This document shows, one piece after another, positions 1,203-15,479 of a DNA stretch of 15,479 nt. The notes below the pieces were generated by a model. The model worked only from the letters and a program-made list of their open reading frames with translations, had not been told where the DNA came from and did not search any database. Each line of letters opens with the position of its first letter. The first letter of the stretch is position 1. Origin of the DNA: Candidatus Iainarchaeum sp. (GTDB taxonomy: Archaea > Iainarchaeota > Iainarchaeia > Iainarchaeales > 0-14-0-20-34-12). The stretch is from the NCBI GenBank assembly GCA_030649345.1, contig JAUSKK010000030.1, positions 1 to 15,479 on the forward strand, given 5' to 3'. A program made the translations under genes and the position numbers.

Positions 1203-1209
1203 ATAATAT

Positions 1210-1264
1210 GTATTACTCACAAATATTTAAAAAGGCATGAGTAATACACTAAAATGAGTAATAC
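1210..1264. promoter_or_regulatory. fic promoter/operator: a perfect 10-bp inverted repeat brackets the TATA box, with a third direct copy
   Basis: GTATTACTCA (1210-1219) and TGAGTAATAC (1238-1247) flank TATTTAAA (1224-1231). TGAGTAATAC recurs at 1255-1264. Confidence 0.5.
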
Positions 1265-4041: not shown

Positions 4042-4733
4042 TTGCAATGAAACCTAATTTGTTAGTTTTGTTGGATTTTGATGGAACATTAACAAGTATT
4101 CGATTGGATCCAAAAAAAGTCAAGCTATCTAAATCAATGTATACCACTTTAGAAAAATTAGTTCACAACAAAATTCAAGTAACTATAATTAGCAGTCGCC
4201 CATACTCATTTCTTAAACAGCAATTGCCTTCCTGCGTTAAAATTTTAGGCTCAAAAGGAAATTCTTTAAACAAACTAAAAAAGTTTTCCAAACAACGAAA
4301 GCATATTTTTAGAATTTTATACTGTACTGTAAAAAAGTTTCCGTTAACTACAGTCCAACTAAGCCCTTGCGGCGCAGAAATTCATTTTAGAAAAAACCAG
4401 TCTTTGACATTGTCAAAAGTTATGACTGAAGTTTGCCGAGTATTTGACACACAGCCGGTGAAAATTATTGCAGGCAGGAAAACTGTTGAAGTTATTCCTT
4501 TAGGGCTGGCCAATAAACAAGAAATTGTTAAAAAAATAATAAAAACATGGCAAGGCAAAATTATGTTTATTGGAGACGATGACAGCGATGCTGAAGCAGC
4601 TGTTGAAATAATGAAACAAAAAGGAAATTTAGCTTTTTTAGTCAAAACCAAAGAACGCAAAATCACGCCCAAAGAAGTCATTAAACTAACTGGAATTCAA
4701 GAAGTGCAAAAAACACTTAAACAATTACTTTAA
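4038..4733 (+). CDS. otsB: Trehalose-6-phosphate phosphatase (HAD superfamily)
   Basis: HAD motif I LDFDGTL, motif II IISSRP, a GRKTVEVIP...NKQ segment, and motif IV GDDDSDAE. A GTG start overlaps the otsA stop (GTGA). An alternative ATG lies at 4047. Confidence 0.8.
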   Translation: MIAMKPNLLVLLDFDGTLTSIRLDPKKVKLSKSMYTTLEKLVHNKIQVTIISSRPYSFLKQQLPSCVKILGSKGNSLNKLKKFSKQRKHIFRILYCTVKKFPLTTVQLSPCGAEIHFRKNQSLTLSKVMTEVCRVFDTQPVKIIAGRKTVEVIPLGLANKQEIVKKIIKTWQGKIMFIGDDDSDAEAAVEIMKQKGNLAFLVKTKERKITPKEVIKLTGIQEVQKTLKQLL

Positions 4734-4799: not shown

Positions 4800-5393
4800 T
4801 CAGTTCATATTTCTTGATTGCAAAAGCTTATTGACTTTCTTCTTTACATTTTCCTGATATTTTTTCAAATATTCTTGTACTCGTTTTTTGTCTAATTTAG
4901 GCAAAAGTTCTTCTTTAATTTCTTGAGTTAAAGGCTGTTGGAAATGAATAAAATCTAAAAATGTTTTTTCTAAATCGCTGACTGGGATTTCCCAATCATA
5001 ATATTTTACGTAATTAAATCCAAAGAATAATTTGCGCTGAATTCGATGCACTAAAATATTGACTCCACTGATCTCTCTTAAACCCAATCTAACCTTTCTA
5101 GGCGTAATAATTATTGGATTCGTTTCTTGTGTTCCAATACCTTGCAATGCCAAAGCATTCTGTAACCCATAATAAAACGGAGAAAACGCAAACCCGTACA
5201 TCATGGGGTCTTCTTGAAAAGAATAAACTCCTTGAGTAATCTTATGCAATTCATTTTTTTTTAATAAAAAATGAATCATTAAATGCAAATAATTCTTGCC
5301 CAACTTTTTGCCATGAAATAATAACTGAATATCCCTCATAGTAAAAATAGACTTAGATTTGAATGAAGATTTGAGTTCCTGAACATACGTCAT
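4800..5393 (-). CDS. abiEi: AbiEi-like antitoxin/transcriptional regulator (N-terminal wHTH plus C-terminal domain)
   Basis: FTMRDIQ...LLKKNELHKITQGVYSF is a wHTH followed by the typical YYGLQNALALQGI segment. The gene sits directly downstream of an AbiEii-type NTase. The ATG at 5393 is preceded by AGGTG. The ORF track uses a GTG at 5399. Confidence 0.65.
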   Translation of the reverse strand: MTYVQELKSSFKSKSIFTMRDIQLLFHGKKLGKNYLHLMIHFLLKKNELHKITQGVYSFQEDPMMYGFAFSPFYYGLQNALALQGIGTQETNPIIITPRKVRLGLREISGVNILVHRIQRKLFFGFNYVKYYDWEIPVSDLEKTFLDFIHFQQPLTQEIKEELLPKLDKKRVQEYLKKYQENVKKKVNKLLQSRNMN

Positions 5394-5401
5394 TTTCACA
5401 C

Positions 5402-6049
5402 CTAACTATATTTCAACAATAAAGCCTGCTTAATCTGCTCAAATGAAGGAACAGCACCAGCATACACAATTGCTTTCAAATCCTTCTCATCCGCAGGTAA
5501 AGGCAACTGTTTTAATAAGTCTTTAATTTTCTTTTCAGTTTCATTTGAAACCTGTGCTTGATTACTTAAAAAATAAACATCATAAATATCCCGAATCAAT
5601 TTACGATTAGTATACGTAATCAGTTTCTCTAAAATTAAATCTTCTACAGACAAAGCAAACACATTTGTATACGTTCCATCCAGTTTCTCATACGCCTGCA
5701 CAACAGGCCTTTTGATAGTTGTAATCATATTTGCTTCCAAACGAACCTCTACGCGTTCATTGGAAATCTTGGAAAAAATAGTTGTACTAGTCTGTTTGTA
5801 TTTATTTAATTTTAAACCCCGTGCTTTCAAAGCAATTTCCAATTCAGACTTAAAGTTTTCTTTTGGCTTGAAATAAAAATCCAAATCTTCTGAAAAACGA
5901 TTCCCAGCAAAACAACGCCAAATTGAAGTACCACCATGCAAGACAGCTTTCGGTTCAACAGAATAAACAATCTCTAAAACTTCATCTTGCAAACTAGCAA
6001 TATCCCGATGAAGCTGTTTCCGCAACCGATTAAACAATGAAATCTTCAT
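5402..6049 (-). CDS. abiEii: AbiEii/DUF1814-type nucleotidyltransferase toxin
   Basis: NTase signature LHGGTSIWRCFAGNRFSEDLDF (nt 5879-5935). The ORF track starts at a TTG at 6064. I prefer the ATG at 6049 because TTATATAA (6071-6078) is centred 25.5 nt upstream of it. Confidence 0.8.
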   Translation of the reverse strand: MKISLFNRLRKQLHRDIASLQDEVLEIVYSVEPKAVLHGGTSIWRCFAGNRFSEDLDFYFKPKENFKSELEIALKARGLKLNKYKQTSTTIFSKISNERVEVRLEANMITTIKRPVVQAYEKLDGTYTNVFALSVEDLILEKLITYTNRKLIRDIYDVYFLSNQAQVSNETEKKIKDLLKQLPLPADEKDLKAIVYAGAVPSFEQIKQALLLKYS

Positions 6050-6066
6050 ATTAATAGTATTCAACG

Positions 6067-6697: not shown

Positions 6698-6838
6698 TTA
6701 TTTTTTTCTTTTTTCGTGATCGTCAACCAAGCGGTTAATTATTTCGTCATAGGTTTCATCTTTTTTACCCAATTCGCGTAATCTTTCTCGTGTTTCAGGC
6801 GTTAATTGAATAGTTGTGATTTGCTTGCTTGACGGCAT
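6698..6838 (-). CDS. 46-aa ribbon-helix-helix (CopG/VapB-like) protein, absent from the supplied ORF track
   Basis: Hand translation: MPSSKQITTIQLTPETRERLRELGKKDETYDEIINRLVDDHEKRKK. It shows a beta-strand, helix-turn-helix RHH pattern with a basic tail and lies 25 nt downstream of the TrmB-like gene. Confidence 0.6.
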   Translation of the reverse strand: MPSSKQITTIQLTPETRERLRELGKKDETYDEIINRLVDDHEKRKK

Positions 6839-6863: not shown

Positions 6864-7379
6864 TTAAAGTTGCCTTCTTCCATTGAAAACTAGTTGTTTC
6901 TCACTTTCAGGTATTTCTTTAATTTTTTGTTCAATTCGTTGTTTGAGTTCTATTAATTCTTTGTAATTGCTGGCTTCTTGCATGGTTGTTTGATTAATAA
7001 GTTTAGTTTGATTGCCATTTCCAATTTTTATTACGTATTCTATTGAATGGCCATTGGAAGTATTTAGAATTACTTGTTCTAGTTTTTGTTTGCGTTCATT
7101 TAGTACTTTAGTTTTTGCAATTTGTTCAAATGCTTTGATTGGGTCACTGCAAAAGTAGCTGGCCGGCATTGAATTGGTTTTCTTTATCAATCCATTTTTT
7201 TCTAAGTTTATTAGTGCATAATAAACTGTAGCCGGTTGCAGTTGTGTTTCTTTTTGTATTACTATTGCAGTCTTTACATCACTTGTGAGTAAACTTAGGT
7301 AGACTTTAGCAATACTTTTGCTGAATTGCTCAAGTATACCTTTGTAGCTAGCTATCACTAGCTTGAGGTTTTCATCCAT
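6864..7379 (-). CDS. TrmB-family winged-helix transcriptional regulator
   Basis: N-terminal HTH_TrmB-like pattern AKVYLSLLTSDVKTAIVIQKETQLQPATVYYALINLEKNGLIKK...PASYFCSDP, followed by a coiled-coil-like C-terminus. Confidence 0.7.
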   Translation of the reverse strand: MDENLKLVIASYKGILEQFSKSIAKVYLSLLTSDVKTAIVIQKETQLQPATVYYALINLEKNGLIKKTNSMPASYFCSDPIKAFEQIAKTKVLNERKQKLEQVILNTSNGHSIEYVIKIGNGNQTKLINQTTMQEASNYKELIELKQRIEQKIKEIPESEKQLVFNGRRQL

Positions 7380-7612: not shown

Positions 7613-8773
7613 TTATTGCCTTTTCAGAAAATCTTGCAGCAAAGGTACTGAAAAAGCATAATATCCTCTTTGTGCCCTGTAAATTAATCCCTTATCAATT
7701 AGGCGAACCAAATATTTTTGCATTAGCATGTAATTAAGTTTCATTTTTTTACTAATATATTTGGCTGGAATTTCTTTTTCTTTGCAAGTTGCCATTGCAA
7801 GTAATGCTTTCTTTTCCATTGCAGACGCAAGATTAAATCTGTCTTCAAAGAAACTTTTATCCAACATTTTCAAAAGCTTGTTTTTATTTTGCACTAAATC
7901 GGATTGCAGTACGTTAGCTTTTTTCGCGTTATCCGCTAAAAAGTAACCATAAAATTGCAAAAAATACGGATAACCCTGAGTCTCTTCAATTACTTGACTG
8001 ACTAATTTGCTCTCAAATTTGTACTCAGTTTTCTTTAATGGTTCAGTTAATGCCTTTTCTGCTTCCAATTCGTCAAGGTTTCCAACTTCTTGATAGTTAA
8101 ACATTCTTTCAGTGTATGTTTTTGCTTCTTTAAGATTTGTTTTCAACGCAGGCAAACCAGACAAACATAGAACATATCTGCAACCTTCTCTTTGCACTTG
8201 TGCAATCGCACTTAGCAAACTTGATAGTACGTATTGTTGATCTTCTTTTTTGTCTTTTACTAAATGAAATTCATCGTACAATAATACTACTCCTTTTTTG
8301 TTGGATTTTTCAAAAACTGGCCAATTGGATTCCAGTAATTCTTTCAAGTAATCTTCTAACACTTCTCTTTTTTCTCCATGATACGGTTTATAGGTTATTC
8401 CATAACCAGACAGTTCTTCAACTTTTAGGCTTTCAATTAATTTTTTTCCAGTTTCTTCAATTTTCTTTTTAATAGATACTTCGGCAGCCATTGCAATTAA
8501 GTCTTTTCCAAATACTTGTGCAAATTCAGTTTCATTACAGTAACGTTCGTTAAATTCTCTGTCCATAAACAGCCAGTTATTTGTTTCCGCAAGTATTTTA
8601 TAATGTCTAAGCAAAACTGTTTTCCCTGTTCCGCGTAAACCGTATACTACAATGTTTCTTGGCAGACCTTCTTCTGTTTCTTTTAAAGATTTAATGAATT
8701 CTTGAATGTATTCTTGCCTTCCTGCTAAATATGCTGGTTCAATTCCGTTTCCAGGGGTAAAAGGATTTCTCAT
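7613..8773 (-). CDS. Arch_ATPase-type (PF01637-like) AAA+ ATPase with C-terminal winged helix
   Basis: N-terminus NPFTPGNGIEPAYLAGRQEY, Walker A GLRGTGKT (nt 8618-8641), Walker B VVLLYDEFH, C-terminal wHTH ...LIDKGLIYRAQRGYYAFSVPLLQDFL. The ATG overlaps the upstream stop (ATGA). Confidence 0.75.
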   Translation of the reverse strand: MRNPFTPGNGIEPAYLAGRQEYIQEFIKSLKETEEGLPRNIVVYGLRGTGKTVLLRHYKILAETNNWLFMDREFNERYCNETEFAQVFGKDLIAMAAEVSIKKKIEETGKKLIESLKVEELSGYGITYKPYHGEKREVLEDYLKELLESNWPVFEKSNKKGVVLLYDEFHLVKDKKEDQQYVLSSLLSAIAQVQREGCRYVLCLSGLPALKTNLKEAKTYTERMFNYQEVGNLDELEAEKALTEPLKKTEYKFESKLVSQVIEETQGYPYFLQFYGYFLADNAKKANVLQSDLVQNKNKLLKMLDKSFFEDRFNLASAMEKKALLAMATCKEKEIPAKYISKKMKLNYMLMQKYLVRLIDKGLIYRAQRGYYAFSVPLLQDFLKRQ

Positions 8774-11013
8774 GCAAACAACTCGTTTATTTTTGAAATA
8801 ACTTCAGTTCGTTTTAGTGTATTGCCTAGTTTTTCATACTCCGTTTTCAGGTCTTTATTTGTTACAACAAAATACCAGTCATCTGAAGTTTTTTGCAATT
8901 GATTTAGTTTTGTTTGAATATCTTCTTTTTTTGCTTTCAAAAGCTGGCCTGTTTCAATTTCAAATGCAATGCGCTTGTTTTTAGCAGTAAAGATTATGTC
9001 AGGATTTACCGATTGATAGCGTTCTAGTTCATTTGTATATTTTTTGAGTTCTTGAAAAATAAGTTCACATAACAGATAATGGTTTGCTCCTTCTTTTCCT
9101 GTGTCTTTCCTTACAAAATAGGTGTGTCCTTTTCCTTCGCCAAATCCAGATTCTCGAATTTCATTCCAGCCTGCTGTTTTTAGTATTTCAATTTCTTCAT
9201 TTGTAAGTTTTTTCTTTTTCCAATAATTTCGTTCAAACAAATTTCTGGGCCCTACTGTTGGTGTTTCTTGTAGTTGTTTTAGTTGTTCCTTTGCGGTCAA
9301 TTCTTCTGGATTTGTGGTTATAATTTGGTGTTCTTGTTTGCTTGCAATTATTTTGATAGGAATTCGATCATTCATTGCTAATAACAGGCCAGTTCCGGGT
9401 GTGCTTGTTAGAATGAAGTTTTGTTCTGTTTGCTTTAATCCAAACTTTTGTGTAATGTCTTGAATTACACTTGCTTCTTGTCTGAGTAATACTTTCCAAC
9501 TGGTATTTGCCAGGACTGAGTTTCCTGCTTTTGTATGCAATAAATCATTTACTTCTTGGGTTAGAATCAATAGTCCTGTTCCAAATTTTCTGGCAGTTTT
9601 GCATATTTTAAATAAGTATTCTGCTTGCTCTCCATATTTAAGCAAACTCCAAGCTTCATCTACCACAATTAGTTTTCGTTCTTTGTTTTTTTGAACTTTT
9701 TCATACAAATAATCTAAAATCAAGAACATGATTACTGGTTTGACTTGTTCTGGCATTTCTTTAATATTAAAAGTGATCAAATTCTTTTCAAGATTTAATT
9801 TAGTTGGATTATTCAAGAAAGAAAACGATCCTTTGGCGTAAATTCTTAACCGGTTTAGCAATGCTTCATATGTTAGTTGCTGTATTTTTGAGCGTGTTTT
9901 CTTTTCTTCCTCTTCTAAAACCAAGTAAAGATCTTTTAGCATCGGAGGTGTCTTTTTCCATGTTTCTTGATTCTCTGGAGTAATTCCTTTTCTCAAATAC
10001 GTTTCGTGCAGTGATTTATCCAATATACTTCTTTGTACTTCAGTAAGTTCTCCAAACATGATTTTGAATAAATCCATTAAGGACAACAGTTTGTCTCCGA
10101 AATCTTTTCCCATCAAATCAAGCGGGTTAATAATTGTATTTGAATTTCGGCTGATTTCAATTATTTGTCCTTTGTAAGCATTTGTTAATTCCAAATATTC
10201 TCCTTGTGGGTCAATTACAAATGTTTTAGTTTCGTTTAAAAGATTTCTTAGAATATATAATTTTACAAAAAAGCTTTTTCCTGAACCACTTGAACCTAAT
10301 ACTAATCCATTATAGTTGGCAAATGTATATGGATTGAGGATAATCGGAATATTGTTTGTATAGTTAACTCCGAACATGATGCCTTTTTCTTGTGCGTTTA
10401 AGAAAGCAGTTGTAAAAGGAAAGCAAGCAGCTAATGCACTACTTGAAATATTTCTTTTCATTTTAAGTTTATCTTGCGCTAAAGGCAGAACTGATTGAAG
10501 TGCAGGTTGTTGTTTCAAATAAGGTGTTTTTGGAATAATCATTATTGCATTCAATTCGCTTTCAATTTTCCTGCTCAATAATTCTAGTTCTTGTTTGTTT
10601 TTTGCTCGCGCATTCAAGTATAAACTGAAATTGAATAATTTTTCGTCACCTCTTTGCAAGTTTTCAAGCATTCTATAAGTGTCTTCATATTGAAGTTTCA
10701 ATGAAGGACTTACAATGCCTTTACTTTCACTTGCAATAACATCCGAACGCTGTTTAATCAATTCACGATTTAACTGTTCCAAAACTGTGTTAATGCATTG
10801 TGGTTCAATATGCAATGTAACGTCAAAATTCCCAGGACTTGCTACAATTGCATTTAGCCAGCCTTCTTTTATGAAACGTGGATAACCTACAGCCATTTCT
10901 ACACGATTAAGGGACTGATTGAGAACAATGTGATCATACTTATTCTGCATTTTTGAGGGCTTTAATAGTGCCATCAATTTGGACGCTGTTTGTGGACTTA
11001 ACGAACTAGGCAT
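8770..11013 (-). CDS. VirB4/TraE/ConE-family conjugation ATPase lacking the first ~200 aa of the usual N-domain and carrying an extra C-terminal PD-(D/E)xK-like domain
   Basis: GYPRFIKEGWL...DVTLHIEP (VirB4 N-domain second half), EKLFNFSLYL, Walker A GSSGSGKS (res 240-247, nt 10273-10296), IDPQGEY, INPLD, Walker B LIVVDEAWSLL (D452/E453, nt 9655-9660), RKFGTGLLILTQE. The C-terminal ~158 aa (nt 8773-9246) contain H645, E650, PD672 and E685-I-E687. Confidence 0.85.
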   Translation of the reverse strand: MPSSLSPQTASKLMALLKPSKMQNKYDHIVLNQSLNRVEMAVGYPRFIKEGWLNAIVASPGNFDVTLHIEPQCINTVLEQLNRELIKQRSDVIASESKGIVSPSLKLQYEDTYRMLENLQRGDEKLFNFSLYLNARAKNKQELELLSRKIESELNAIMIIPKTPYLKQQPALQSVLPLAQDKLKMKRNISSSALAACFPFTTAFLNAQEKGIMFGVNYTNNIPIILNPYTFANYNGLVLGSSGSGKSFFVKLYILRNLLNETKTFVIDPQGEYLELTNAYKGQIIEISRNSNTIINPLDLMGKDFGDKLLSLMDLFKIMFGELTEVQRSILDKSLHETYLRKGITPENQETWKKTPPMLKDLYLVLEEEEKKTRSKIQQLTYEALLNRLRIYAKGSFSFLNNPTKLNLEKNLITFNIKEMPEQVKPVIMFLILDYLYEKVQKNKERKLIVVDEAWSLLKYGEQAEYLFKICKTARKFGTGLLILTQEVNDLLHTKAGNSVLANTSWKVLLRQEASVIQDITQKFGLKQTEQNFILTSTPGTGLLLAMNDRIPIKIIASKQEHQIITTNPEELTAKEQLKQLQETPTVGPRNLFERNYWKKKKLTNEEIEILKTAGWNEIRESGFGEGKGHTYFVRKDTGKEGANHYLLCELIFQELKKYTNELERYQSVNPDIIFTAKNKRIAFEIETGQLLKAKKEDIQTKLNQLQKTSDDWYFVVTNKDLKTEYEKLGNTLKRTEVISKINELFA

Positions 11014-11035
11014 TTAAGAAATATTGCCTTTTTTC

Positions 11036-11068
11036 TTTATAACCTCTCGAGATTGAAATTCTATAGAA
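11036..11068 (-). promoter_or_regulatory. Promoter of the VirB4 operon: TATA box plus upstream palindrome
   Basis: TTATAAA (minus-strand reading of 11036-11042) is centred 26 nt from the ATG at 11013. TTCTATAGAA (11059-11068) is centred 50.5 nt from it. Confidence 0.55.
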
Positions 11069-11271
11069 ACTATACTGTGCTATTTTATACTATTGTCTAA
11101 CAATATCAGAATATAGCTTTTTTACAAAATGTTGTTATTATTAAAATGATAAAAAAATAAAATGCTTAAAAATGGCAAATTTATGGCTTTTTTAGAAGAT
11201 AATTTTTATTAATTAAAAAAAGGAACATTTAAAAACTTATACGCGCCAGAATTATTTAGTGATAGTTTAAA

Positions 11272-11490
11272 ATGGATGACGAAAAATTAAACGCAATAAT
11301 TAGAAGACTTGATGCTACTATCGTTGTCTTGTTAAATCAAGACAAAATGCAAGCAATGAATCTAAAAGAGAAAGTTATTGCATTATCTAATACTGGTTTA
11401 AAGGATCCTGAAATTGCGACAATGCTTGGAATTAAAGCTGTTACGGTTCGGGCTATAAAAAGTAAAGAACGGAGTGATAAAAATGGATGA
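11272..11490 (+). CDS. Small HTH protein (sigma-70 region 4/LuxR-like helix-turn-helix), paralog 1
   Basis: 72 aa with an N-terminal helix LNAIIRRLDATIVVLL, then LSNTGLKDPEIATMLGIKAVTVRAIKSK (GL.d.EIA..LG....V pattern). Confidence 0.6.
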   Translation: MDDEKLNAIIRRLDATIVVLLNQDKMQAMNLKEKVIALSNTGLKDPEIATMLGIKAVTVRAIKSKERSDKNG

Positions 11491-11695
11491 ATCTAAAATT
11501 ACTGAAAAGCTTAATACAATTATTAATTTACTTGCGTTACATGTTGTAAAAAAAACAGAATATGCTGAGCAAGTAAGATTATTAATGATTTCGGGGTTAC
11601 GCGATGTTGAAATTGCAAAAATTTTAGGAAAAACAAGGAACAATGTTGCTGTAACTATGAGTAAGCTAAGAAAGATGGGTACTAAGGCAAAATAG
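11483..11695 (+). CDS. Small HTH protein, paralog 2
   Basis: MDESKITEKLNTIINLLALHVV...ISGLRDVEIAKILGKTRNNVAVTMSKLRK parallels paralog 1 (MDDEKLNAII...). The ATG at 11483 is preceded by GGAGTGA and overlaps the upstream stop. The ORF track uses a GTG at 11474. Confidence 0.6.
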   Translation: MDESKITEKLNTIINLLALHVVKKTEYAEQVRLLMISGLRDVEIAKILGKTRNNVAVTMSKLRKMGTKAK

Positions 11696-11709
11696 TAATT
11701 GGTGACAAT

Positions 11710-11979
11710 ATGGAAAAATCAGATAGTGAACTCTTAAAAAAAATTCTCGAAAAAATTGAATTTATTGCAAAACAATACTCTTATAAATTGCTTGAAGAGG
11801 AATTGTCAAATAAAAAATTAAAATTATTATATCAACATACTGGGAAGGGAATTCCGCGACCAAAACTTGAAAAAGTTACTGGGTTAAGTGCTGGTAAGAT
11901 ATCCGGTATTTGGGCTAAATGGGAAAGTAAAGGCCTCTTAAAAAAAGATGGTAAATCATATTACAAAATTTTTGAATGA
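11710..11979 (+). CDS. Small winged-helix DNA-binding protein, third member of the tandem set
   Basis: 89 aa with N-terminal helix LLKKILEKIEFIAKQY, then PKLEKVTGLSAGKISGIWAKWESKGLLKKDGKSYYKI (HTH plus wing). GGTGA lies 6 nt upstream of the ATG. Confidence 0.55.
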   Translation: MEKSDSELLKKILEKIEFIAKQYSYKLLEEELSNKKLKLLYQHTGKGIPRPKLEKVTGLSAGKISGIWAKWESKGLLKKDGKSYYKIFE

Positions 11980-12698
11980 TATTTATGGAAAAATTGAACG
12001 CAAAGAAAAAAATTATTAAAAAAATTGCTACAAAAACGCATCAGAAGGAAAGTTCTATAAAAGTTAGAATTTCAGAGCTTGCATCTAATCATCCCGGATT
12101 GACATGGTTTTCAAAAGCGTACTTATATGCAAAAGAAAAAAATGTTAATATTCTGAGTTTGATTCCAATTAATGACCGAAAAAACTTACCTAGTAAAATT
12201 GAAGTGGAACGACAACCAATAAAAGTTAAAGAAAAGGCCAATAAGCAACGGCAAAAAATACCAATAATTTTTGCGCCATATTGTGATGATCTTTTTGTTA
12301 ATGCACATTTTAACGAATTAAATAAATCAATCTATTATGGTTGTTTTACATCGGCAACTATCTTGAGTCGAAAAATTATTGAAAATAGGTTAATTGAATT
12401 TTTACGCAAGCACTACTCAAGTGACGTCACATTATATTTTAATTCTACAAAGAACAGAATGCAGGATTTTAATACTATATTAACCAATTTACAAAATAAA
12501 TCTAAGGAATTTGGACCTGATCAATCACTTATAAACTCACTAGTTACAAGATGTCATAAATTTAGAGAGCAAGCAAATGGAAATACCCATTCCTTTTTTG
12601 AAATCGTTCGAACAAAAAAAGAATTCGAATCACACAACACGGATCAAATATTTAGTTTACTTGATAAGGTAACTTTAATTCAGCCAAAGAAACTTTAG
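11976..12698 (+). CDS. Protein with a C-terminal DUF4145-like domain, unknown function
   Basis: ELNKSIYYGCFTSATILSRKIIENRLIEFL ... KFREQANGNTHSF resembles the DUF4145 pattern (A..C...G.y.aa..l.R..lE ... R..GN...H). ATGA overlap with the upstream gene. Confidence 0.45.
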   Translation: MIFMEKLNAKKKIIKKIATKTHQKESSIKVRISELASNHPGLTWFSKAYLYAKEKNVNILSLIPINDRKNLPSKIEVERQPIKVKEKANKQRQKIPIIFAPYCDDLFVNAHFNELNKSIYYGCFTSATILSRKIIENRLIEFLRKHYSSDVTLYFNSTKNRMQDFNTILTNLQNKSKEFGPDQSLINSLVTRCHKFREQANGNTHSFFEIVRTKKEFESHNTDQIFSLLDKVTLIQPKKL

Positions 12699-12708
12699 TT
12701 GCCTACTT

Positions 12709-13536
12709 TTACTCACATAACTGAGTAAATACTGAAAAATAATCATTTTCCACTTCAATAAATCCCTCGAAAAAGCTTGCTAGTAGTGTGGTTAGTTCTT
12801 GGTCGTTTAATTGTTTTGATAACAGAGCTGCTTTTTGTATTTTTTCTTTGCATAGTTGAACTCTTACAGTAAGCTGATTTAAGTCTAATTCTTCATTTTT
12901 TGTTTTTTCAACTGGAATAACTACATAAAATAATCGATTTTTTACTTTGTTGTCTGTGATGTATTCTTCTATGAATTTTTTCAATGATTCAAATTGTTCT
13001 AGTAGTTCTTGTTTATTTTGTTTTTTTACTCGATTTTCAAGTTCTCTTAAATATGCAATTACGTTCAAGTCTACTGTTCGCATTACGATTTGTATTGGAA
13101 AATCAAGTGAGTTTAGAAAATCTTTAAATGAGTGGATAACTGCTTTTTGTTCTGATTCGGATAGCATATCAAAGCTTATGGGTAAAACTTGCAGTATTGC
13201 TAACATTCTTCCGTGTGTATAAACTGCATTATTTTCAATTTTCTGCACATCCATAAATTTTTCCATTTTTTTGTCAAAATAACCTGCGTTTCGCATTGAC
13301 GTTAAATATTCTATTCCGTCTTTTAGTTTTCCCCAAGCGCCAACAAATGCAAACGCCCCGCCGGCAATAAACAAAAGTATTGTAATTAGAATTTTCCATT
13401 CAAAGGAAAGTTGCGTTTTTAGAAAAATAAATATTGTTGGAGTAACAAAGATCGCGAGCCAGAATAATTGTTTTGCTGTTAGCCCAAATACGATTTTTTC
13501 TTCGTACTTTAGATTTTGTGGTATTTCGTATGACAT
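12709..13536 (-). CDS. PrgI/VirB3-like two-TM anchor fused to the first part of a VirB4 N-terminal domain
   Basis: N-terminus YEIPQNLKYEEKIVFGLTAKQLFWL plus two TM helices (PrgI family pattern). The cytoplasmic part, VQKIENNAVYTHGRMLAILQVLPISFDMLSESEQKAVIHSFKDFLNSLDFPIQIVMRT, matches the start of VirB4/TrbE N-domains. Confidence 0.7.
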   Translation of the reverse strand: MSYEIPQNLKYEEKIVFGLTAKQLFWLAIFVTPTIFIFLKTQLSFEWKILITILLFIAGGAFAFVGAWGKLKDGIEYLTSMRNAGYFDKKMEKFMDVQKIENNAVYTHGRMLAILQVLPISFDMLSESEQKAVIHSFKDFLNSLDFPIQIVMRTVDLNVIAYLRELENRVKKQNKQELLEQFESLKKFIEEYITDNKVKNRLFYVVIPVEKTKNEELDLNQLTVRVQLCKEKIQKAALLSKQLNDQELTTLLASFFEGFIEVENDYFSVFTQLCE

Positions 13537-13540
13537 TTTT

Positions 13541-14488
13541 TCACTGTCCTGATCTGAATACTTGGATAAAGTTTTTTACTTTAGTTGTAACTGTGGCTGC
13601 TGATTTGAAGACTGCAAAGTAAAACATTCCAATGTTAAGCAATGTCATTAGAACTAGCCCAATGGCTGTTGACAGTAAACCAATTATTGCAATGCCTGCA
13701 AATTCTTCTGCCACTAAATTAATTGCAATTAACAAAATAACGTCCATGATTGGCATTAGTAAAGCAATTCCAATTAAGTTCAGCAATAACATTCCGTAAG
13801 ACCGCAGTGGTTCTATGAAATAGAAAAATATTGCAATAGGGAACAACATGATTCCCATTATGATTATTGCTTGTCTAAAATACAAACTAATTACTGCAGG
13901 AATAATTGAAAGCGCAAGAAAAATTAACCAAATAATATTTAACGGATTCAAGTCAACATTTAGAATGCTTTCTAATCCATTGTTCCAAAGTGCCTGTGTT
14001 ACGCCTGAACTTAATGCTACAATTAATGAGTACCATAAAAGTGAAGTGTTTACAATAGCTAAAATGATTAATGTGTGTTTGAGCCATTCTTTTGCACTGG
14101 CTCTTTGTTCTGCGTCATATGAACCCATTAAGAATTTTGCACCAGTCAAAAAGAACAATAAAACATAAAATGAAGAAATAATTCCAACGATTAAAAACCA
14201 ATAACTTGAGTACTTGAAAACATCCACTGCAGGCAATAAGAATGTTTTTACAATGCCAAGTAATGGATTTACAAAGCCTACGAGTAAACTAGAGATAAAT
14301 CCAGTAAATGCACCTACTATTGCATTAGGTAAACTTGTAAAAAATTCTGCAATTCCATTCAATAAAGGGCCAAAATCTAATGGTGCTGGCGGTGGTGGTT
14401 GGGGTGGAGGCGTAGTATCTGTGCTAGTTGCAAAGGCATTCAGAGTGAATAAAACCATTGCAAACAAAATGAGTATTTTTTTGTTCAT
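13541..14488 (-). CDS. VirB6/TrbL/CedA-like polytopic membrane protein
   Basis: Signal peptide (..LNAFA|TS), Pro-rich linker TTPPPQPPPPAP (nt ~14381-14410), then about 7 TM helices. It sits between the pilin-like and PrgI-like genes. The call rests on topology and context only. Confidence 0.55.
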   Translation of the reverse strand: MNKKILILFAMVLFTLNAFATSTDTTPPPQPPPPAPLDFGPLLNGIAEFFTSLPNAIVGAFTGFISSLLVGFVNPLLGIVKTFLLPAVDVFKYSSYWFLIVGIISSFYVLLFFLTGAKFLMGSYDAEQRASAKEWLKHTLIILAIVNTSLLWYSLIVALSSGVTQALWNNGLESILNVDLNPLNIIWLIFLALSIIPAVISLYFRQAIIIMGIMLFPIAIFFYFIEPLRSYGMLLLNLIGIALLMPIMDVILLIAINLVAEEFAGIAIIGLLSTAIGLVLMTLLNIGMFYFAVFKSAATVTTKVKNFIQVFRSGQ

Positions 14489-14506
14489 AACAATCTTTTA
14501 ATGTTG

Positions 14507-14556
14507 GGAAAGGGCACTGTATTAGAGCTCAGGAGGAGGGTTTCAGCACCCTTTCC
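14507..14556 (-). other. GC-rich intercistronic stem-loop between the pilin-like and VirB6-like genes
   Basis: GGAAAGGG (14507-14514) pairs with CCCTTTCC (14549-14556). A 2-nt mismatch is followed by CTG/CAG (14517-19 with 14544-46). The loop contains AGGAGGAGGG. GTTGGG direct repeats flank the structure (14503-08 and 14557-62). Confidence 0.45.
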
Positions 14557-14570
14557 GTTGGGTAGTTTTT

Positions 14571-14909
14571 TCAGGCATTCAAATAACTTACAAGTGCTGG
14601 AGCAACCCAAACTACTGCCATTCCAATGATTGCATAGGACAGCATTTGTTTTGCACCTTCTCTAGCCTGCAAGTTATCCCCTGAAAACATAAACTTCACA
14701 CCAGCAAACGTAATCACAATTACAGCCAAAATTGAAACAATTGCTTTAACCAAATCATAAATTCGATTCAATGGTTCCGTAATTGCACTTACGCTAGTTT
14801 GCTCTAAAGCAAATACCGGGCTACTGTAAAATGACATTAACAGAAACACTGCCATGATCAGTATCGTTGTATTTGCAAACTTTTTCACTTCAACCAATTC
14901 TCTTAGCAT
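14571..14909 (-). CDS. VirB2/TrbC/CedA1-like pilin precursor
   Basis: 112 aa. Signal peptide with an A-x-A-like site (PVFA|LEQ after residue 34). The mature ~78 aa form two hydrophobic helices (about res 49-75 and 88-109) joined by the polar loop SGDNLQAREGAKQ. It is the first gene of the operon. Confidence 0.6.
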   Translation of the reverse strand: MLRELVEVKKFANTTILIMAVFLLMSFYSSPVFALEQTSVSAITEPLNRIYDLVKAIVSILAVIVITFAGVKFMFSGDNLQAREGAKQMLSYAIIGMAVVWVAPALVSYLNA

Positions 14910-14931
14910 ACAAACATAGTCCTTAAAGAAC

Positions 14932-14964
14932 TATAAAAAGAAAATAGATGGAAATTCTATGGAA
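14932..14964 (-). promoter_or_regulatory. Promoter of the pilin operon: TATA box plus upstream palindrome
   Basis: TTTTTATA (minus-strand reading of 14932-14939) is centred 26.5 nt from the ATG at 14909. TTCTATGGAA (14955-14964) is centred 50.5 nt from it. Confidence 0.55.
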
Positions 14965-14994
14965 AGAAAATAGTATACTGGTTATGAACTGAAC

Positions 14995-15402
14995 TTAAAT
15001 CTTACAAATATTAAGTGGTAAACGCCGAAGGATTCCAGCAATATTGCCAATAGAAGCAACTGTAAATACAAATCCACAAATAAGTGCGATAAACGCCATA
15101 ATAAAAATAATTTTTTCAGTTTTTCTTTCTTTGACGAATTTAAATTGGATAATTGCAAATGGCCACAAAGAAAAAATTGTGAACTTTATTAGCAAAGACG
15201 TCAGTAGCCCAAAATTATTTATTAAAATGATCCATAAAAAAGTTTGCTCAGATCCACCGCAATATTTAATTCCTAAAAAGGTGGTAATTAGATCAACTAG
15301 ATTTGCAAAAATACAAAATCGCATAAACTGTGGAAAGAACTCCTCACAAAGCACGATATAATGGAGAAGTCCTGTTTTCAGTTCAGCTAATAATTTCTTC
15401 AT
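14995..15402 (-). CDS. Small polytopic membrane protein (about 4 TM), possibly DUF5658-like
   Basis: Hydrophobic 135-aa ORF. ANLVDLITTFLGIKYCGGSE weakly recalls the D...T...G..E motif of DUF5658. It lies directly upstream of the pilin operon promoter. Confidence 0.4.
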   Translation of the reverse strand: MKKLLAELKTGLLHYIVLCEEFFPQFMRFCIFANLVDLITTFLGIKYCGGSEQTFLWIILINNFGLLTSLLIKFTIFSLWPFAIIQFKFVKERKTEKIIFIMAFIALICGFVFTVASIGNIAGILRRLPLNICKI

Positions 15403-15479
15403 TTCAAGTTATAATAAATATTTATTCAAATCTTACTTCTTTAAGGTTATTTTTGATGGCAAGTTTAATTTGATCAAAT

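What the first reader, a model, noticed from the sequence alone, without database searches (positions are those of the whole stretch)
7613..15402. Compact VirB2 / VirB6 / VirB3-VirB4 (T4SS-derived, Ced/Ted-like) pilus or DNA-transfer locus in an archaeal-looking context, with no relaxase or VirD4
Two minus-strand operons encode a minimal conjugation-type set. The first (14909 to 12709) has a signal-peptide two-helix pilin, a ~7-TM VirB6-like protein, and a PrgI/VirB3-like anchor with a VirB4 N-module. The second (11013 to about 6698) has the VirB4 ATPase with an extra nuclease-like domain, an Arch_ATPase AAA+/wHTH protein, a TrmB regulator and an RHH protein.

I can see no relaxase, VirD4/TraG coupling protein, VirB7-10 envelope parts, VirB1 or VirB11 in the window. 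A VirB2 + VirB6 + VirB4 core without a relaxase is the composition reported for the archaeal Ced and Ted DNA-import systems. Here it appears with different accessories and with apparently DPANN-like sequence features: leaderless mRNAs with TATA at -26, TrmB, Arch_ATPase, and high AT content.

Speculatively, it is a conjugation-derived pilus used by a reduced-genome archaeon to import or export DNA. The fused nuclease might process the substrate, for example to scavenge host DNA or nucleotides.
Basis: partly seen in the sequence, partly recalled or inferred. Interest (0 to 1): 0.85.

Follow-up and report, generated by a model that had tools for sequence, protein, structure and literature searches.

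The report
Minimal DPANN secretion system, nuclease-tipped ATPase
This contig from a tiny symbiotic (DPANN) archaeon carries an intact, stripped-down conjugation-type pilus machine whose motor ATPase ends in a conserved nuclease-like domain; the same machine is widespread in DPANN archaea and could be how these cells move DNA without the usual relaxase and coupling protein.

Summary
The window is a whole 15.5-kb contig of a Diapherotrites/Iainarchaeota (DPANN) MAG.

It encodes:
- a VirB2-type pilin;
- a 7-helix membrane protein in the VirB6 position;
- a PrgI/VirB3 protein fused to the VirB4 N-domain;
- a VirB4 ATPase of the monoderm CD1110 (MPF-FATA) type.

No coupling protein or relaxase is present.

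New points:
1. VirB3-VirB4 is one gene in some relatives. It is naturally split in Iainarchaeota. Here the halves are further separated by a contig-specific 1.7-kb insert, and the two units carry duplicated promoters.
2. The "VirB6-like" protein is detectably related only to VirB2 pilins (one hairpin). Its VirB6 status rests on position and a weak fold match.
3. The VirB4 C-terminus has a PD-(D/E)xK nuclease fold with an invariant E-H-D-ExE motif, present in 78 of 82 related loci. Free-standing copies sit directly after tyrosine integrases.
4. All 80 best loci kept from the species-genome scan are DPANN. A third of well-sampled loci have a co-oriented integrase upstream.

It is closer to bacterial monoderm and Patescibacteria T4SSs than to Ced/Ted. 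I found no published description of it. The substrate and its direction of movement remain inferred.

The parts
14571..14909 (-). VirB2-type pilin precursor, 112 aa (signal peptide ending ...VFA, then two hydrophobic helices)
   Evidence: Pfam T4SS_pilin E 3.7e-16 and TrbC E 2.1e-13, both above cut-off. Pilin-family ORFs occur at 67 of 82 related loci.
14946..14965 (-). 20-nt shared upstream element TTTCCATAGAATTTCCATCT, at -56..-37 from the pilin ATG. It is followed after 7 nt by the TATA-like box TTTATAG (14931-14937).
   Evidence: The second copy lies at the identical offset upstream of VirB4.
13541..14488 (-). 315-aa secreted polytopic membrane protein in the VirB6 position. It has a signal peptide, a Pro-rich linker, a VirB2-like helical hairpin (aa ~92-146) and four further long helices.
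   Evidence: - AF2 model pLDDT 90.6.
- hhalign of the pilin against this family: probability 96%, E 4e-9.
- 29 of 59 family members hit T4SS_pilin.
- Foldseek: 5 of the top 6 PDB hits are R388 TrwI/VirB6, but E is 0.1-0.25.
- Found at 70 of 82 loci.
12709..13536 (-). 275-aa PrgI/VirB3 membrane anchor fused to the first part of the VirB4 N-terminal domain (TrsD/TraC-like)
   Evidence: - PrgI E 5.3e-9.
- Matches VirB4_plasma profile positions 3-282 of 894, and TrsD E 1.6e-5.
- Colinear with aa 1-271 of the fused 1029-aa P0037, E 5e-58.
- Found at 76 of 82 loci.
11014..12708 (+). Contig-specific insert between the two halves of VirB3-VirB4. It carries plus-strand genes for two paralogous small HTH proteins (11272-11490, 11474-11695), an 89-aa protein (11710-11979) and a 240-aa protein of unknown function (11976-12698).
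   Evidence: None of the four has a homologue at the other 81 loci. Only weak HTH hits. No flanking repeats.
11050..11069 (-). Second copy of the 20-nt upstream element (TTTCTATAGAATTTCAATCT), at -56..-37 from the VirB4 ATG. It is followed after 7 nt by the TATA-like box TTATAAAG (11035-11042).
   Evidence: There are only two matches in the window; 0.01 are expected by chance.
9247..11013 (-). VirB4 ATPase proper (aa 1-589): the rest of the N-domain plus the P-loop ATPase (Walker A G240-S247, Walker B D452-E453)
   Evidence: - NCBIfam CD1110 family, 328.3 bits (cut-off 325).
- P-loop_TraG E 6.9e-27.
- PDB 4AG5, E 1e-51.
- Catalytic columns invariant in 21 homologues.
8773..9246 (-). C-terminal domain of VirB4 (aa 590-747): a small beta-alpha-beta-beta subdomain plus a PD-(D/E)xK nuclease-fold core. 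The motif residues are E641, H645, P671-D672, E685-x-E687 and K702.
   Evidence: - AF2 pLDDT 87.9.
- Foldseek hits are almost all PD-(D/E)xK nucleases: Hjc, Can2, Cdn1, N.BspD6I, R2 RLE and Avs4, with probability 0.9-0.99.
- Motif invariant in the fused and free-standing forms.
- Present in the VirB4 of 78 of 82 loci.
7613..8773 (-). 386-aa AAA+/STAND-like ATPase with a C-terminal winged helix. Its start overlaps the VirB4 stop (ATGA). It is a locus-specific accessory.
   Evidence: AAA_16 E 5e-12 and nSTAND1 29.3 bits. phrog_6841 E 5e-22. No homologue at the other 81 loci.
6864..7379 (-). 171-aa TrmB-family regulator, a recurrent neighbour of the system
   Evidence: TrmB E 3.7e-9. Relatives occur at 24 of 82 loci. 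The orthologous cluster is found at 15 loci, with a median position 3.5 kb downstream of VirB4.
6698..6838 (-). 46-aa ribbon-helix-helix protein (DUF7557)
   Evidence: E 1e-12.

Best explanation
The locus is an intact copy of a minimal, monoderm-type type IV secretion (conjugation-type) apparatus that is widespread in DPANN archaea.

**Shown**
- A Sec-exported VirB2 pilin.
- A secreted 7-helix membrane protein in the VirB6 position that itself contains a VirB2-like hairpin.
- A VirB3(PrgI)-VirB4N protein and a VirB4 ATPase that together equal one fused VirB3-VirB4 protein of related archaea.
- A conserved PD-(D/E)xK nuclease-fold domain at the cytoplasmic C-terminus of VirB4.
- No coupling ATPase or relaxase in the window, and no coupling ATPase beside any of the 82 loci.
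- Two transcription units with duplicated promoter/operator regions.

**Inferred mechanism**
1. The membrane protein and VirB3-VirB4N form the membrane platform.
2. The VirB4 hexamer extracts pilin from the membrane and polymerises a pilus or conduit through the S-layer.
3. The nuclease-like domain, held at the cytoplasmic mouth of the channel, binds and nicks or cuts DNA. It thereby supplies the DNA-processing and substrate-docking role that relaxase and VirD4 play in bacteria.
4. The likely substrate is DNA. Many relatives sit just downstream of a co-oriented tyrosine integrase, so it is probably the DNA of an integrated element that carries the system.

Whether DNA goes out (conjugation) or comes in (Ced-like import) is not determined.
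For: **Component identities:**

**Intactness**
- All ORFs are open.
- Walker A/B residues and the nuclease motif are invariant.
- Each unit has its own TATA box plus a shared 20-nt element at the identical offset.

**Family-wide conservation**
- 412 relatives were found in species-representative genomes. The best 80 are all DPANN.
- The core order is pilin, then TM protein, then VirB3/VirB4N, then VirB4, at 67-82 of 82 loci.

**Nuclease domain**
- The fold is confident (pLDDT 87.9) with the canonical alpha-beta-beta-beta-alpha-beta layout. E and H lie on helix 1, D at the start of strand 2, and ExE on strand 3.
- It is present in 78 of 82 VirB4s.
- It is absent from 72,556 plasmid records.

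**Link to mobile-element DNA**
- Free-standing homologues with the same invariant residues lie immediately downstream of tyrosine integrases at L082, where a tRNA-Ser overlaps the integrase start, and at L083 and L087.
- 18 of 82 T4SS loci have a tyrosine integrase within 10 kb. 16 of these are on the pilin side and 15 are co-oriented; only 49 loci have at least 6 kb of sequence on that side.
- tRNA-integrase-pilin-TM-VirB4 arrays occur at L060 and L062.

**Absence of a coupling protein**
- jackhmmer with a Firmicutes VirD4 found nothing among 6676 ORFs.
- None of the 16 neighbouring P-loop protein clusters is a coupling protein.
Against: - No experiment exists. Pilus formation, nuclease activity and the DNA substrate are all inferred.
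- The catalytic motif is ExE, not ExK. A few relatives have ExQ or lack the helix-1 Glu, so the domain could be a DNA-binding rather than a cutting module.
- Foldseek E-values for the nuclease fold are weak (best 3.8e-4).
- This contig shows no integrase, tRNA or att repeat.
- No att repeats were found around the ten related loci examined.
- The homologous Patescibacteria system, which also lacks a relaxase and coupling protein, has been argued not to transport DNA (PMC10633639).
- Relaxases were not searched for systematically outside the window. Whole genomes could not be inspected.
Confidence: 0.55

Rival explanations
1. Host-interaction machine like the Patescibacteria T4SS. In this view it is a chromosomal, domesticated pilus or conduit that the episymbiotic archaeon uses to attach to its host and take up (or inject) macromolecules such as proteins, RNA or nucleotides. 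The nuclease domain would degrade imported nucleic acid for salvage.
For: - The composition matches the Patescibacteria system: a monoderm-type VirB4, VirB3, VirB2-like pilins, and no relaxase or coupling protein (PMC12102498, PMC10633639).
- DPANN share the reduced, host-dependent lifestyle.
- The system is widespread and lies on large chromosomal contigs of up to 1.56 Mb.
- Some loci are next to giant surface proteins (L086).
- This window has cellular neighbours (OtsA/OtsB, MscS) and no integrase.
Against: - Some genomes carry two copies.
- The flanks are variable and rich in defence genes.
- A co-oriented integrase lies upstream in about a third of well-sampled loci.
- Free-standing nuclease homologues pair with integrases, not with uptake genes.
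- These features fit mobile DNA better than a core cellular organelle.
Confidence: 0.25
2. Ced/Ted-type DNA importer. In this view the pilus and VirB4 pull DNA from neighbouring cells into the archaeon for repair or nucleotide supply.
For: - VirB2 + polytopic membrane protein + VirB4-like ATPase without a relaxase is the composition reported for Ced and Ted (PMC9905601).
- The window has no relaxase or coupling protein.
- A cytoplasmic nuclease could process incoming strands.
Against: - The ATPase is not a CedB: 71 bits against a cut-off of 700. It scores 328 bits on the bacterial CD1110 VirB4 model.
- Neither the pilin nor the membrane protein hit a Ced family.
- There are no Ups-like or HerA/Rad50 partners.
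- The integrase linkage is not expected for a repair importer.
Confidence: 0.12
3. Decaying remnant. In this view the 1.7-kb insertion between the two VirB4 halves inactivated an operon that is no longer used.
For: - The insert is unique to this contig.
- Other loci also have foreign genes inserted inside the cluster. Examples are Gabija-like genes at L065 and 279-436-aa genes at L004 and L005.
Against: - The VirB3-VirB4N / VirB4 split itself is the normal architecture in about 30 Iainarchaeota loci.
- All four core ORFs are full length with invariant catalytic residues.
- VirB4 has acquired its own promoter, a copy of the pilin promoter at the same spacing.
Confidence: 0.05
4. Mis-binned bacterial (CPR or Firmicutes) conjugative element with an ordinary relaxase and coupling protein just off the contig.
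For: - The VirB4 scores best on a Firmicutes family model.
- The nearest annotated plasmid genes are from Firmicutes and Actinobacteria.
- A few relatives are labelled bacterial: L025 'Peregrinibacteria' and P0077 'Sphaerochaetaceae'.
Against: - Identity to bacterial VirB4 is only about 31% and ends before the nuclease domain.
- The 80 best genomic relatives are DPANN archaea.
- Related loci contain archaeal genes: TFIIB, NAC, Sec61-beta, histone-fold protein and aEF-1beta.
- The promoters are archaeal in type.
- L025 has the same gene order and sizes as the archaeal L020, so it is probably a binning error.
Confidence: 0.02

Closest known systems
Patescibacteria (CPR) T4SS, e.g. Southlakia epibionticum SEML1_0006-0019 (PMC10633639; PMC12102498)
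   Same: - A monoderm (MPF-FATA-related) VirB4 and a PrgI/VirB3.
- VirB2-like pilins, which are unusual for monoderm systems.
- No relaxase and usually no linked coupling protein.
- Chromosomal location in an ultra-small, host-dependent organism.
   Different: - The host is archaeal.
- There is a single pilin gene plus a pilin-like hairpin inside the polytopic membrane protein, rather than an array of pilin paralogues.
- No VirB1- or VirB8-like genes are detected.
- VirB3 is fused to VirB4 or to its N-domain; the CPR survey found no VirB3-VirB4 fusions.
- VirB4 carries a C-terminal nuclease-fold domain.
- Integrases are frequently linked.
- Whether the DPANN VirB4 falls in the Patescibacteria clade was not tested.
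Firmicutes CD1110-family (MPF-FATA) conjugative T4SS, e.g. Clostridium botulinum pCDC3875 (L089)
   Same: - The VirB4 passes the CD1110-family cut-off.
- The gene order is the same: polytopic membrane protein, PrgI, N-domain-like protein, VirB4.
- The VirB4 N-domain can be a separate protein (TrsD-like hit).
   Different: - The bacterial locus has VirD4 (CD1115), a MOBP relaxase, a cell-wall hydrolase, DUF3801 and SSB, and no pilin. None of these was found at 82 DPANN loci.
- The membrane protein is not detectably related to the CD1112 VirB6.
- The nuclease domain is absent from 72,556 plasmids.
Mycoplasma ICE conjugation module (Mbov_0395 pilin-like protein, Mbov_0397 VirB3-VirB4 fusion)
   Same: - It is a minimal apparatus in a wall-less or monoderm cell.
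- It has a VirB3-VirB4 fusion architecture: the 275-aa plus 747-aa proteins cover model positions 3-893 of 894.
- It has small pilin-like proteins: the window pilin hits the Mbov_0395 family at E 1.3e-5, and 17 of 59 members of the 315-aa protein's family hit it too.
   Different: - Scores are far below the equivalog cut-offs (285 against 590).
- Mycoplasma ICEs have a VirD4 (CDS5) and a DDE transposase.
- They have no nuclease domain on VirB4.
Archaeal Ced (Sulfolobales) and Ted (Thermoproteales) DNA-import systems (PMC9905601)
   Same: - The host is archaeal.
- The composition is a VirB2-like pilin, a polytopic membrane protein and a VirB4/HerA-type ATPase.
- No relaxase is known.
   Different: - The ATPase is not a CedB (71 bits against 700) or a CedD (34 against 600).
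- Ced has no PrgI/VirB3 module or nuclease fusion.
- The lineage and context differ: DPANN, with integrase linkage.
PD-(D/E)xK nucleases (Hjc resolvase, Can2/Card1 and Cdn1 CRISPR-ancillary nucleases, N.BspD6I nickase, R2 RLE domain)
   Same: - The core fold is the same.
- The acidic residues are placed the same way on helix 1, strand 2 and strand 3.
   Different: - No sequence-level family match in Pfam or the PDB.
- The motif is ExE (as in BamHI, from my own knowledge) instead of ExK.
- It is fused to a VirB4, or paired with an integrase.

Membership tests
VirB4-based type IV secretion system, monoderm MPF-FATA / CD1110 type | VirB4 ATPase that passes the family model | tested here: met
   NF045971 scores 328.3 bits against a cut-off of 325. 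The PDB 4AG5 VirB4 domain matches at E 1e-51. The Walker A and B columns are invariant.
VirB4-based type IV secretion system, monoderm MPF-FATA / CD1110 type | VirB3/PrgI membrane partner | tested here: met
   PF12666 scores 36.9 bits against a cut-off of 27. Here it is fused to the VirB4 N-domain.
VirB4-based type IV secretion system, monoderm MPF-FATA / CD1110 type | VirB6/TrbL-family polytopic channel protein | tested here: inconclusive
   - No Pfam or NCBIfam VirB6 hit for the protein or for 59 relatives, apart from one TrbL hit at E 0.12.
- hhalign against a CD1112 VirB6 gives probability 0.06.
- Foldseek puts R388 TrwI/VirB6 in 5 of the top 6 places, but with E 0.1-0.25 and TM-scores of 0.24-0.42.
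- A precomputed TrbL_3 hit for the orthologue at L085 was not reproduced.
- The position matches that of VirB6 in pCDC3875.
VirB4-based type IV secretion system, monoderm MPF-FATA / CD1110 type | VirD4-type coupling protein | tested here: not met
   - None in the window.
- jackhmmer with the CD1115 VirD4 gave 0 hits in 6676 ORFs of 82 loci.
- None of the neighbouring P-loop proteins is a coupling protein.
- The rest of each genome was not inspected.
VirB4-based type IV secretion system, monoderm MPF-FATA / CD1110 type | Relaxase (MOB family) | tested here: not met
   - No relaxase family hit for any window protein.
- None in the Pfam-annotated neighbourhoods L001, L085, L086 and one further locus.
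- No recurrent relaxase-sized unknown protein cluster.
- No dedicated MOB-profile scan was done.
Patescibacteria-type T4SS | Monoderm-type VirB4 combined with VirB2-like pilins and no linked relaxase | tested here: met
   set against the description in PMC12102498 and PMC10633639.
Patescibacteria-type T4SS | VirB4 falls inside the Patescibacteria VirB4 clade | not tested
A phylogeny is needed.
Ced DNA-import system | CedB ATPase (and CedA, CedA1, CedA2) | tested here: not met
   The CedB model scores 71 bits against a cut-off of 700, and CedD scores 34 against 600. Neither the pilin nor the membrane-protein family hits a Ced family.
PD-(D/E)xK nuclease superfamily (VirB4 C-terminal domain) | alpha-beta-beta-beta-alpha-beta core fold | tested here: met
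   The AF2 model has pLDDT 87.9 and pTM 0.81. The Foldseek hits are dominated by PD-(D/E)xK nucleases with probability 0.9-0.99; Hjc aligns at rmsd 2.5 A over 78 columns.
PD-(D/E)xK nuclease superfamily (VirB4 C-terminal domain) | Catalytic D ... (D/E)xK triad | tested here: inconclusive
   - D672 and E685 are invariant.
- The third position is E687, not Lys. A nearly invariant K702 follows on the next helix.
- A few relatives have ExQ.
PD-(D/E)xK nuclease superfamily (VirB4 C-terminal domain) | Metal-dependent DNA cleavage | not testable with these tools
   A biochemical assay is needed.
Integrative and conjugative element (ICE) | Integrase and att boundaries enclosing the transfer genes | tested here: not met
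   - The window has no integrase, tRNA or flanking repeat, but only 570 bp lie beyond the pilin gene.
- Among relatives, 18 of 82 have an integrase and 16 of these are on the pilin side.
- tRNA-integrase-T4SS arrays occur at L060 and L062.
- No att repeats were found.

The most novel reading that the evidence does not exclude
The conserved PD-(D/E)xK domain occurs in two forms: fused to VirB4 in the T4SS, and encoded as a small free-standing gene right behind tyrosine integrases. Under this reading it is the DPANN substitute for the relaxase and coupling protein that have never been found in archaeal conjugation.

It would cut or nick the element's DNA and dock it at the VirB4 channel. Integrase-plus-nuclease pairs without a T4SS would be mobilisable elements that borrow the machine.
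Probability: 0.2. Interest if true: 0.85.

Novelty: new variant of a known kind. Interest (0 to 1): 0.68.

Why it matters
- DPANN archaea, like Patescibacteria, are ultra-small cells that depend on a host. How they exchange material with other cells is largely unknown.
- This locus shows that a pilus-forming, monoderm-type T4SS is widespread in DPANN. It parallels the system that is essential for epibiotic growth in Patescibacteria. It therefore gives a concrete, conserved four-gene target for cryo-ET and genetics in the few DPANN co-cultures.
- The nuclease-fold domain on VirB4 and its integrase-linked free-standing relatives offer a testable candidate for the missing DNA-processing enzyme of archaeal conjugation. 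No relaxase has been identified there (PMC9905601, PMC12857230).
- The membrane protein with an embedded VirB2-like hairpin may bear on how pilins dock on the VirB6-position platform.

Tried and rejected
- **Sequence family for the C-terminal domain.** A Pfam scan of 18 members and a profile search of the PDB gave only noise. A plasmid tblastn gave no match. Only the predicted fold was informative.
- **Sequence-level VirB6 assignment.**
  - Pfam, NCBIfam and a PDB profile search were negative.
  - hhalign against a CD1112 VirB6 was negative.
  - A precomputed TrbL_3 label on an orthologue could not be reproduced.
- **The insert as a mobile element.** No terminal direct or inverted repeats beyond chance in AT-rich DNA. 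No transposase or integrase. Its 240-aa protein has no Pfam, PHROG, PADLOC or PDB relative.
- **The AAA+ protein as part of the system or as a known defence gene.** It is unique to this contig. PADLOC hits are negligible and there is no PDB relative.
- **att sites for an ICE.** None were found in ten related loci.
- **Viral origin.** Only one distant match in 2.9 million viral contigs.
- **Extending the contig.**
  - The only other assembly of this organism (Logan, 3066 bp) breaks at the same upstream point.
  - An exact-match scan of JGI metagenomes found nothing.
  - The closest homologue, P0003 (78% identity), is not on record for context.
- **RNA genes.** No tRNAs and no Rfam families in the window.
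- **Literature.** I searched DPANN together with VirB4, T4SS, type IV secretion and conjugative. I also searched Woesearchaeota together with conjugal transfer, and PF18895. None turned up a description of this system. The only DPANN-related item was the VirB4-like domain in the nanohaloarchaeal SPEARE giant proteins.

Full report
**1. What is in the window**

The window is a complete 15,479-bp contig. Its 747-aa ATPase is 100% identical to a protein of a 'Candidatus Diapherotrites archaeon' MAG whose longest contig has exactly this length. GC content is uniformly 28-38%. There are no tRNA or Rfam RNA genes.

The left half carries cellular and defence-type genes:
- an ACT-domain fragment;
- Fic;
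- MscS;
- OtsA/OtsB (trehalose synthesis);
- an AbiEii/AbiEi pair.

The finding occupies the right half.

**2. Check of the observation**

| Coordinates | Size | Result |
|---|---|---|
| 14571-14909(-) | 112 aa | T4SS_pilin E 3.7e-16; TrbC/VirB2 E 2.1e-13 |
| 12709-13536(-) | 275 aa | PrgI E 5.3e-9; covers positions 3-282 of the 894-position Mycoplasma VirB3-VirB4 model |
| 8770-11013(-) | 747 aa | passes the CD1110-family VirB4 cut-off (328.3 vs 325 bits) over profile positions 189-735 |
| 7613-8773(-) | 386 aa | AAA+/winged-helix protein |
| 6864-7379(-) | 171 aa | TrmB |
| 6698-6838(-) | 46 aa | RHH protein, DUF7557 |

The best solved relative of the 747-aa protein is the Gram-positive VirB4 ATPase domain 4AG5 (E 1e-51).

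No window protein matches a relaxase, VirD4/TraG, VirB1, VirB7-11 or an integrase.

TATA-like boxes sit at -29..-22 (VirB4) and -28..-22 (pilin) from the start codons. This fits leaderless archaeal transcripts.

**3. One split gene, not two unrelated operons**

The 275-aa protein aligns colinearly with residues 1-271 of a fused 1029-aa DPANN VirB4 (41% identity, E 5e-58). The 747-aa protein aligns with the remainder of that fused protein (54% identity).

Across 82 loci there are three architectures:
- fully fused, about 1000-1050 aa;
- VirB3 of about 110 aa plus VirB4 of about 920 aa;
- in Iainarchaeota, including this window, VirB3-VirB4N of about 280 aa plus VirB4 of about 750 aa.

So the split is a normal, conserved state and not a pseudogene.

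What is peculiar to this contig is a 1.7-kb plus-strand insert between the halves (11014-12708). It carries two paralogous small HTH proteins, an 89-aa protein and a 240-aa protein. None of the four has a homologue at the other 81 loci. The insert has no terminal repeats.

Other loci also have foreign genes lodged inside the cluster. L004 and L005 carry genes of 279-436 aa. L065 carries a Gabija-like GajA/GajB pair.

In the window, the separated VirB4 gene has its own promoter, and it copies the pilin promoter. The 20-nt element TTTCYATAGAATTTCMATCT lies at exactly -56..-37 in both cases. It is followed after 7 nt by the TATA box. These are the only two matches in the window, against 0.01 expected by chance. 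This argues that the two units are co-regulated and in use.

**4. The "VirB6-like" protein**

The 315-aa protein has a signal peptide, a proline-rich linker and about seven hydrophobic helices (AF2 pLDDT 90.6). It evolves fast. A word-indexed search found only 2 relatives. An exhaustive HMMER search found 177 cluster representatives.

Sequence evidence for VirB6 is negative:
- neither the protein nor 59 relatives match a VirB6/TrbL model; one member hits at E 0.12;
- hhalign against the CD1112 VirB6 of a Clostridium plasmid gives probability 0.06.

What is detectable is a VirB2-like hairpin at residues 92-146:
- BLASTP against the window's own pilin gives E 4e-5;
- hhalign gives probability 96%, E 4e-9;
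- 29 of 59 relatives hit Pfam T4SS_pilin;
- 17 of 59 hit the Mycoplasma ICE pilin-like family.

Structurally, R388 TrwI/VirB6 takes five of the top six Foldseek places among 350,542 PDB chains. However, the E-values are 0.1-0.25 and the TM-scores 0.24-0.42.

Its position, directly before PrgI and VirB4, is that of VirB6 in Firmicutes loci.

I therefore treat it as the VirB6-position platform protein, with a built-in pilin-like hairpin. I do not treat it as a demonstrated VirB6 family member.

**5. The extra domain on VirB4**

Residues from about 590 to 747 have no Pfam or PDB sequence match. They are nevertheless conserved: E641, H645, D672, E685 and E687 are invariant in 21 diverse homologues.

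The AF2 model is confident (pLDDT 87.9, pTM 0.81). It shows a small beta-alpha-beta-beta subdomain followed by an alpha-beta-beta-beta-alpha-beta core. E and H lie on the first helix, D at the start of strand 2 and ExE on strand 3.

The Foldseek hits are almost all PD-(D/E)xK nucleases: VC1899, Cdn1, Can2, the R2 RLE domain, Bax1, Avs4, N.BspD6I, Hjc, XPF/ERCC1 and VRR-NUC. Probabilities reach 0.99, but E-values are modest (best 3.8e-4).

The domain is present in the VirB4 of 78 of 82 loci. 70 of these match the strict motif. It is absent from 72,556 plasmid records. Bacterial VirB4 matches end at about residue 583.

The nuclease fold is well supported. Catalytic competence is plausible (ExE instead of ExK, with a conserved K702 nearby) but unproven.

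**6. Distribution and context**

A scan of one genome per species found 412 relatives. The best 80 are all DPANN: Iainarchaeota, Woese-, Pace- and Nanoarchaeota, plus a few evidently mislabelled bins. They lie on contigs of up to 1.56 Mb, and several genomes hold two copies.

The conserved core is pilin, then (optionally) a protein of about 130 or about 450 aa, then the TM protein, then VirB3/VirB4N, then VirB4.

Nothing else is broadly conserved. The AAA+ protein is unique to this contig. TrmB relatives occur at 24 loci.

The flanks are variable and rich in restriction-modification, methylase, toxin-antitoxin and Fic genes.

No coupling protein was found:
- a Firmicutes VirD4 query found nothing in 6676 ORFs;
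- the 16 neighbouring P-loop protein clusters are MutS-, OLD/UvrD-, HerA-, RM-, AAA- or T2SSE-type.

Tyrosine integrases lie within 10 kb at 18 loci. 16 of these are on the pilin side and 15 are co-oriented; only 49 loci have at least 6 kb of sequence on that side. L060 and L062 show tRNA-integrase-pilin-TM-VirB4 arrays. No att repeats could be found.

The system is not viral.

**7. Free-standing nuclease genes**

A profile of the C-terminal domain retrieves many proteins of 165-200 aa from Pace-, Woese- and Nanoarchaeia. They carry the same invariant residues.

Six were examined on long contigs:

| Locus | What lies next to the free-standing gene |
|---|---|
| L082 | directly downstream of a tyrosine integrase, with a 4-nt overlap; a tRNA-Ser overlaps the integrase start |
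| L083 | directly downstream of a tyrosine integrase |
| L087 | directly downstream of a tyrosine integrase (faint Phage_integrase hit) |
| fourth locus (no DNA held) | follows an unannotated 412-aa gene of integrase size |
| L088 | next to transposases |
| L084 | none of these |

The domain is therefore a mobile-element DNA-handling module that has also been fused to the T4SS motor.

**8. Mechanism**

Shown: the parts list, their conservation, their intactness and the missing partners.

Inferred:
1. The pilin is exported and assembled on a platform of the 315-aa protein and VirB3-VirB4N.
2. The VirB4 hexamer powers assembly and transport.
3. The C-terminal nuclease-fold domains, six per motor at the cytoplasmic entrance, bind and process DNA in place of a relaxase and coupling protein.

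The integrase linkage makes transfer of an integrated element the most economical reading. For this contig the integrase question is open, because only 570 bp lie beyond the pilin gene and two independent assemblies break there.

A Patescibacteria-like host-interaction role and Ced-like import remain live alternatives. The evidence does not fix direction or substrate.

**9. Comparison with known systems and novelty**

By sequence the ATPase is a monoderm MPF-FATA/CD1110-type VirB4, not a CedB. By composition and lifestyle the nearest described system is the Patescibacteria T4SS (PMC10633639, PMC12102498).

The 2025 T4SS nomenclature review lists only Sulfolobus plasmids and pT33-3 in its archaeal section (PMC12857230). 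The Ced/Ted paper does not mention DPANN. My literature searches found no description of this DPANN system. The library does not cover all journals, so prior mention cannot be excluded.

I rate it a new variant of a known kind. It is a real, widespread, apparently undescribed archaeal T4SS lineage with three distinctive features:
- a VirB4-nuclease fusion;
- a pilin-like hairpin in the VirB6-position protein;
- integrase-linked free-standing nuclease paralogues.

Noticed in passing
window 11050-11069(-) and 14946-14965(-): A 20-nt element (TTTCYATAGAATTTCMATCT, 18/20 identical) sits at exactly -56..-37 from the start codons of VirB4 and of the pilin. Each copy is followed after 7 nt by a TATA-like box. 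It looks like a duplicated promoter/operator, possibly the target of the nearby TrmB or RHH protein. It was found only in this organism.
   Followed up: partly
L082 6673-8528; L083 6705-8555; L087 4687-6555: Free-standing 175-184-aa homologues of the VirB4 C-terminal nuclease-fold domain lie immediately downstream of tyrosine integrases. At L082 a tRNA-Ser overlaps the integrase start. This suggests an integrase-plus-nuclease module of integrated elements.
   Followed up: partly
L065 4740-8349: A Gabija-like pair is inserted between the membrane-protein gene and VirB4 of a related T4SS cluster. The pair is an AAA_15 + OLD-TOPRIM protein of 602 aa and a UvrD helicase of 610 aa.
   Followed up: no
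P0087: A 1251-aa VirB4 homologue carries LAGLIDADG and intein-splicing domains, so it is an intein-containing VirB4.
   Followed up: no
L086 5254-5314 and 6870-6930; 14196-22922: 61-nt direct repeats (89% identical) flank a small cassette just upstream of the pilin gene. The cassette holds a 271-aa integrase and a NikA-like RHH protein (E 6e-7). A 2908-aa CARDB/CBM96/Laminin-G surface protein lies just downstream of VirB4.
   Followed up: no
L020, L025 and one more locus, upstream of the pilin: A T2SSE-family (VirB11/PilB-like) ATPase of about 350 aa sits just upstream of the pilin gene at three related loci. It is absent from the window.
   Followed up: no
L020 vs L025; P0077: L025 is labelled 'Candidatus Peregrinibacteria bacterium' but has the same gene order and sizes as L020, an 'uncultured archaeon'. 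One homologue is labelled Sphaerochaetaceae, and many loci are labelled 'Methanosarcinales'. These are probably binning or labelling errors for DPANN contigs.
   Followed up: no
window 15403-15479 and 11976-12698; L091: The only other assembly of this organism is a Logan contig of 3066 bp. It breaks about 11 bp upstream of the DUF63-like gene, close to the end of the NCBI contig. Its other end breaks inside the 240-aa gene of the insert. This hints at repeats or strain variation at both points.
   Followed up: partly
window 273-1220, 4800-6064, 2590-4733: The same small contig carries a Fic protein (PADLOC PDC-S04/SoFic-like, E 7e-29), an AbiEii/AbiEi pair, and a complete OtsA/OtsB trehalose pathway next to an MscS channel. 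The trehalose pathway is notable for a reduced-genome archaeon.
   Followed up: no
L008-L010, L033-L081 (between the pilin and the membrane protein): Many related loci have an additional gene of about 440-490 aa (or about 130 aa) between the pilin and the VirB6-position protein. In several Woese- and Nanoarchaeota loci it is fused to that protein, giving a product of about 670-690 aa. It has no family assignment apart from a weak DUF8186 hit. The window lacks it.
   Followed up: no
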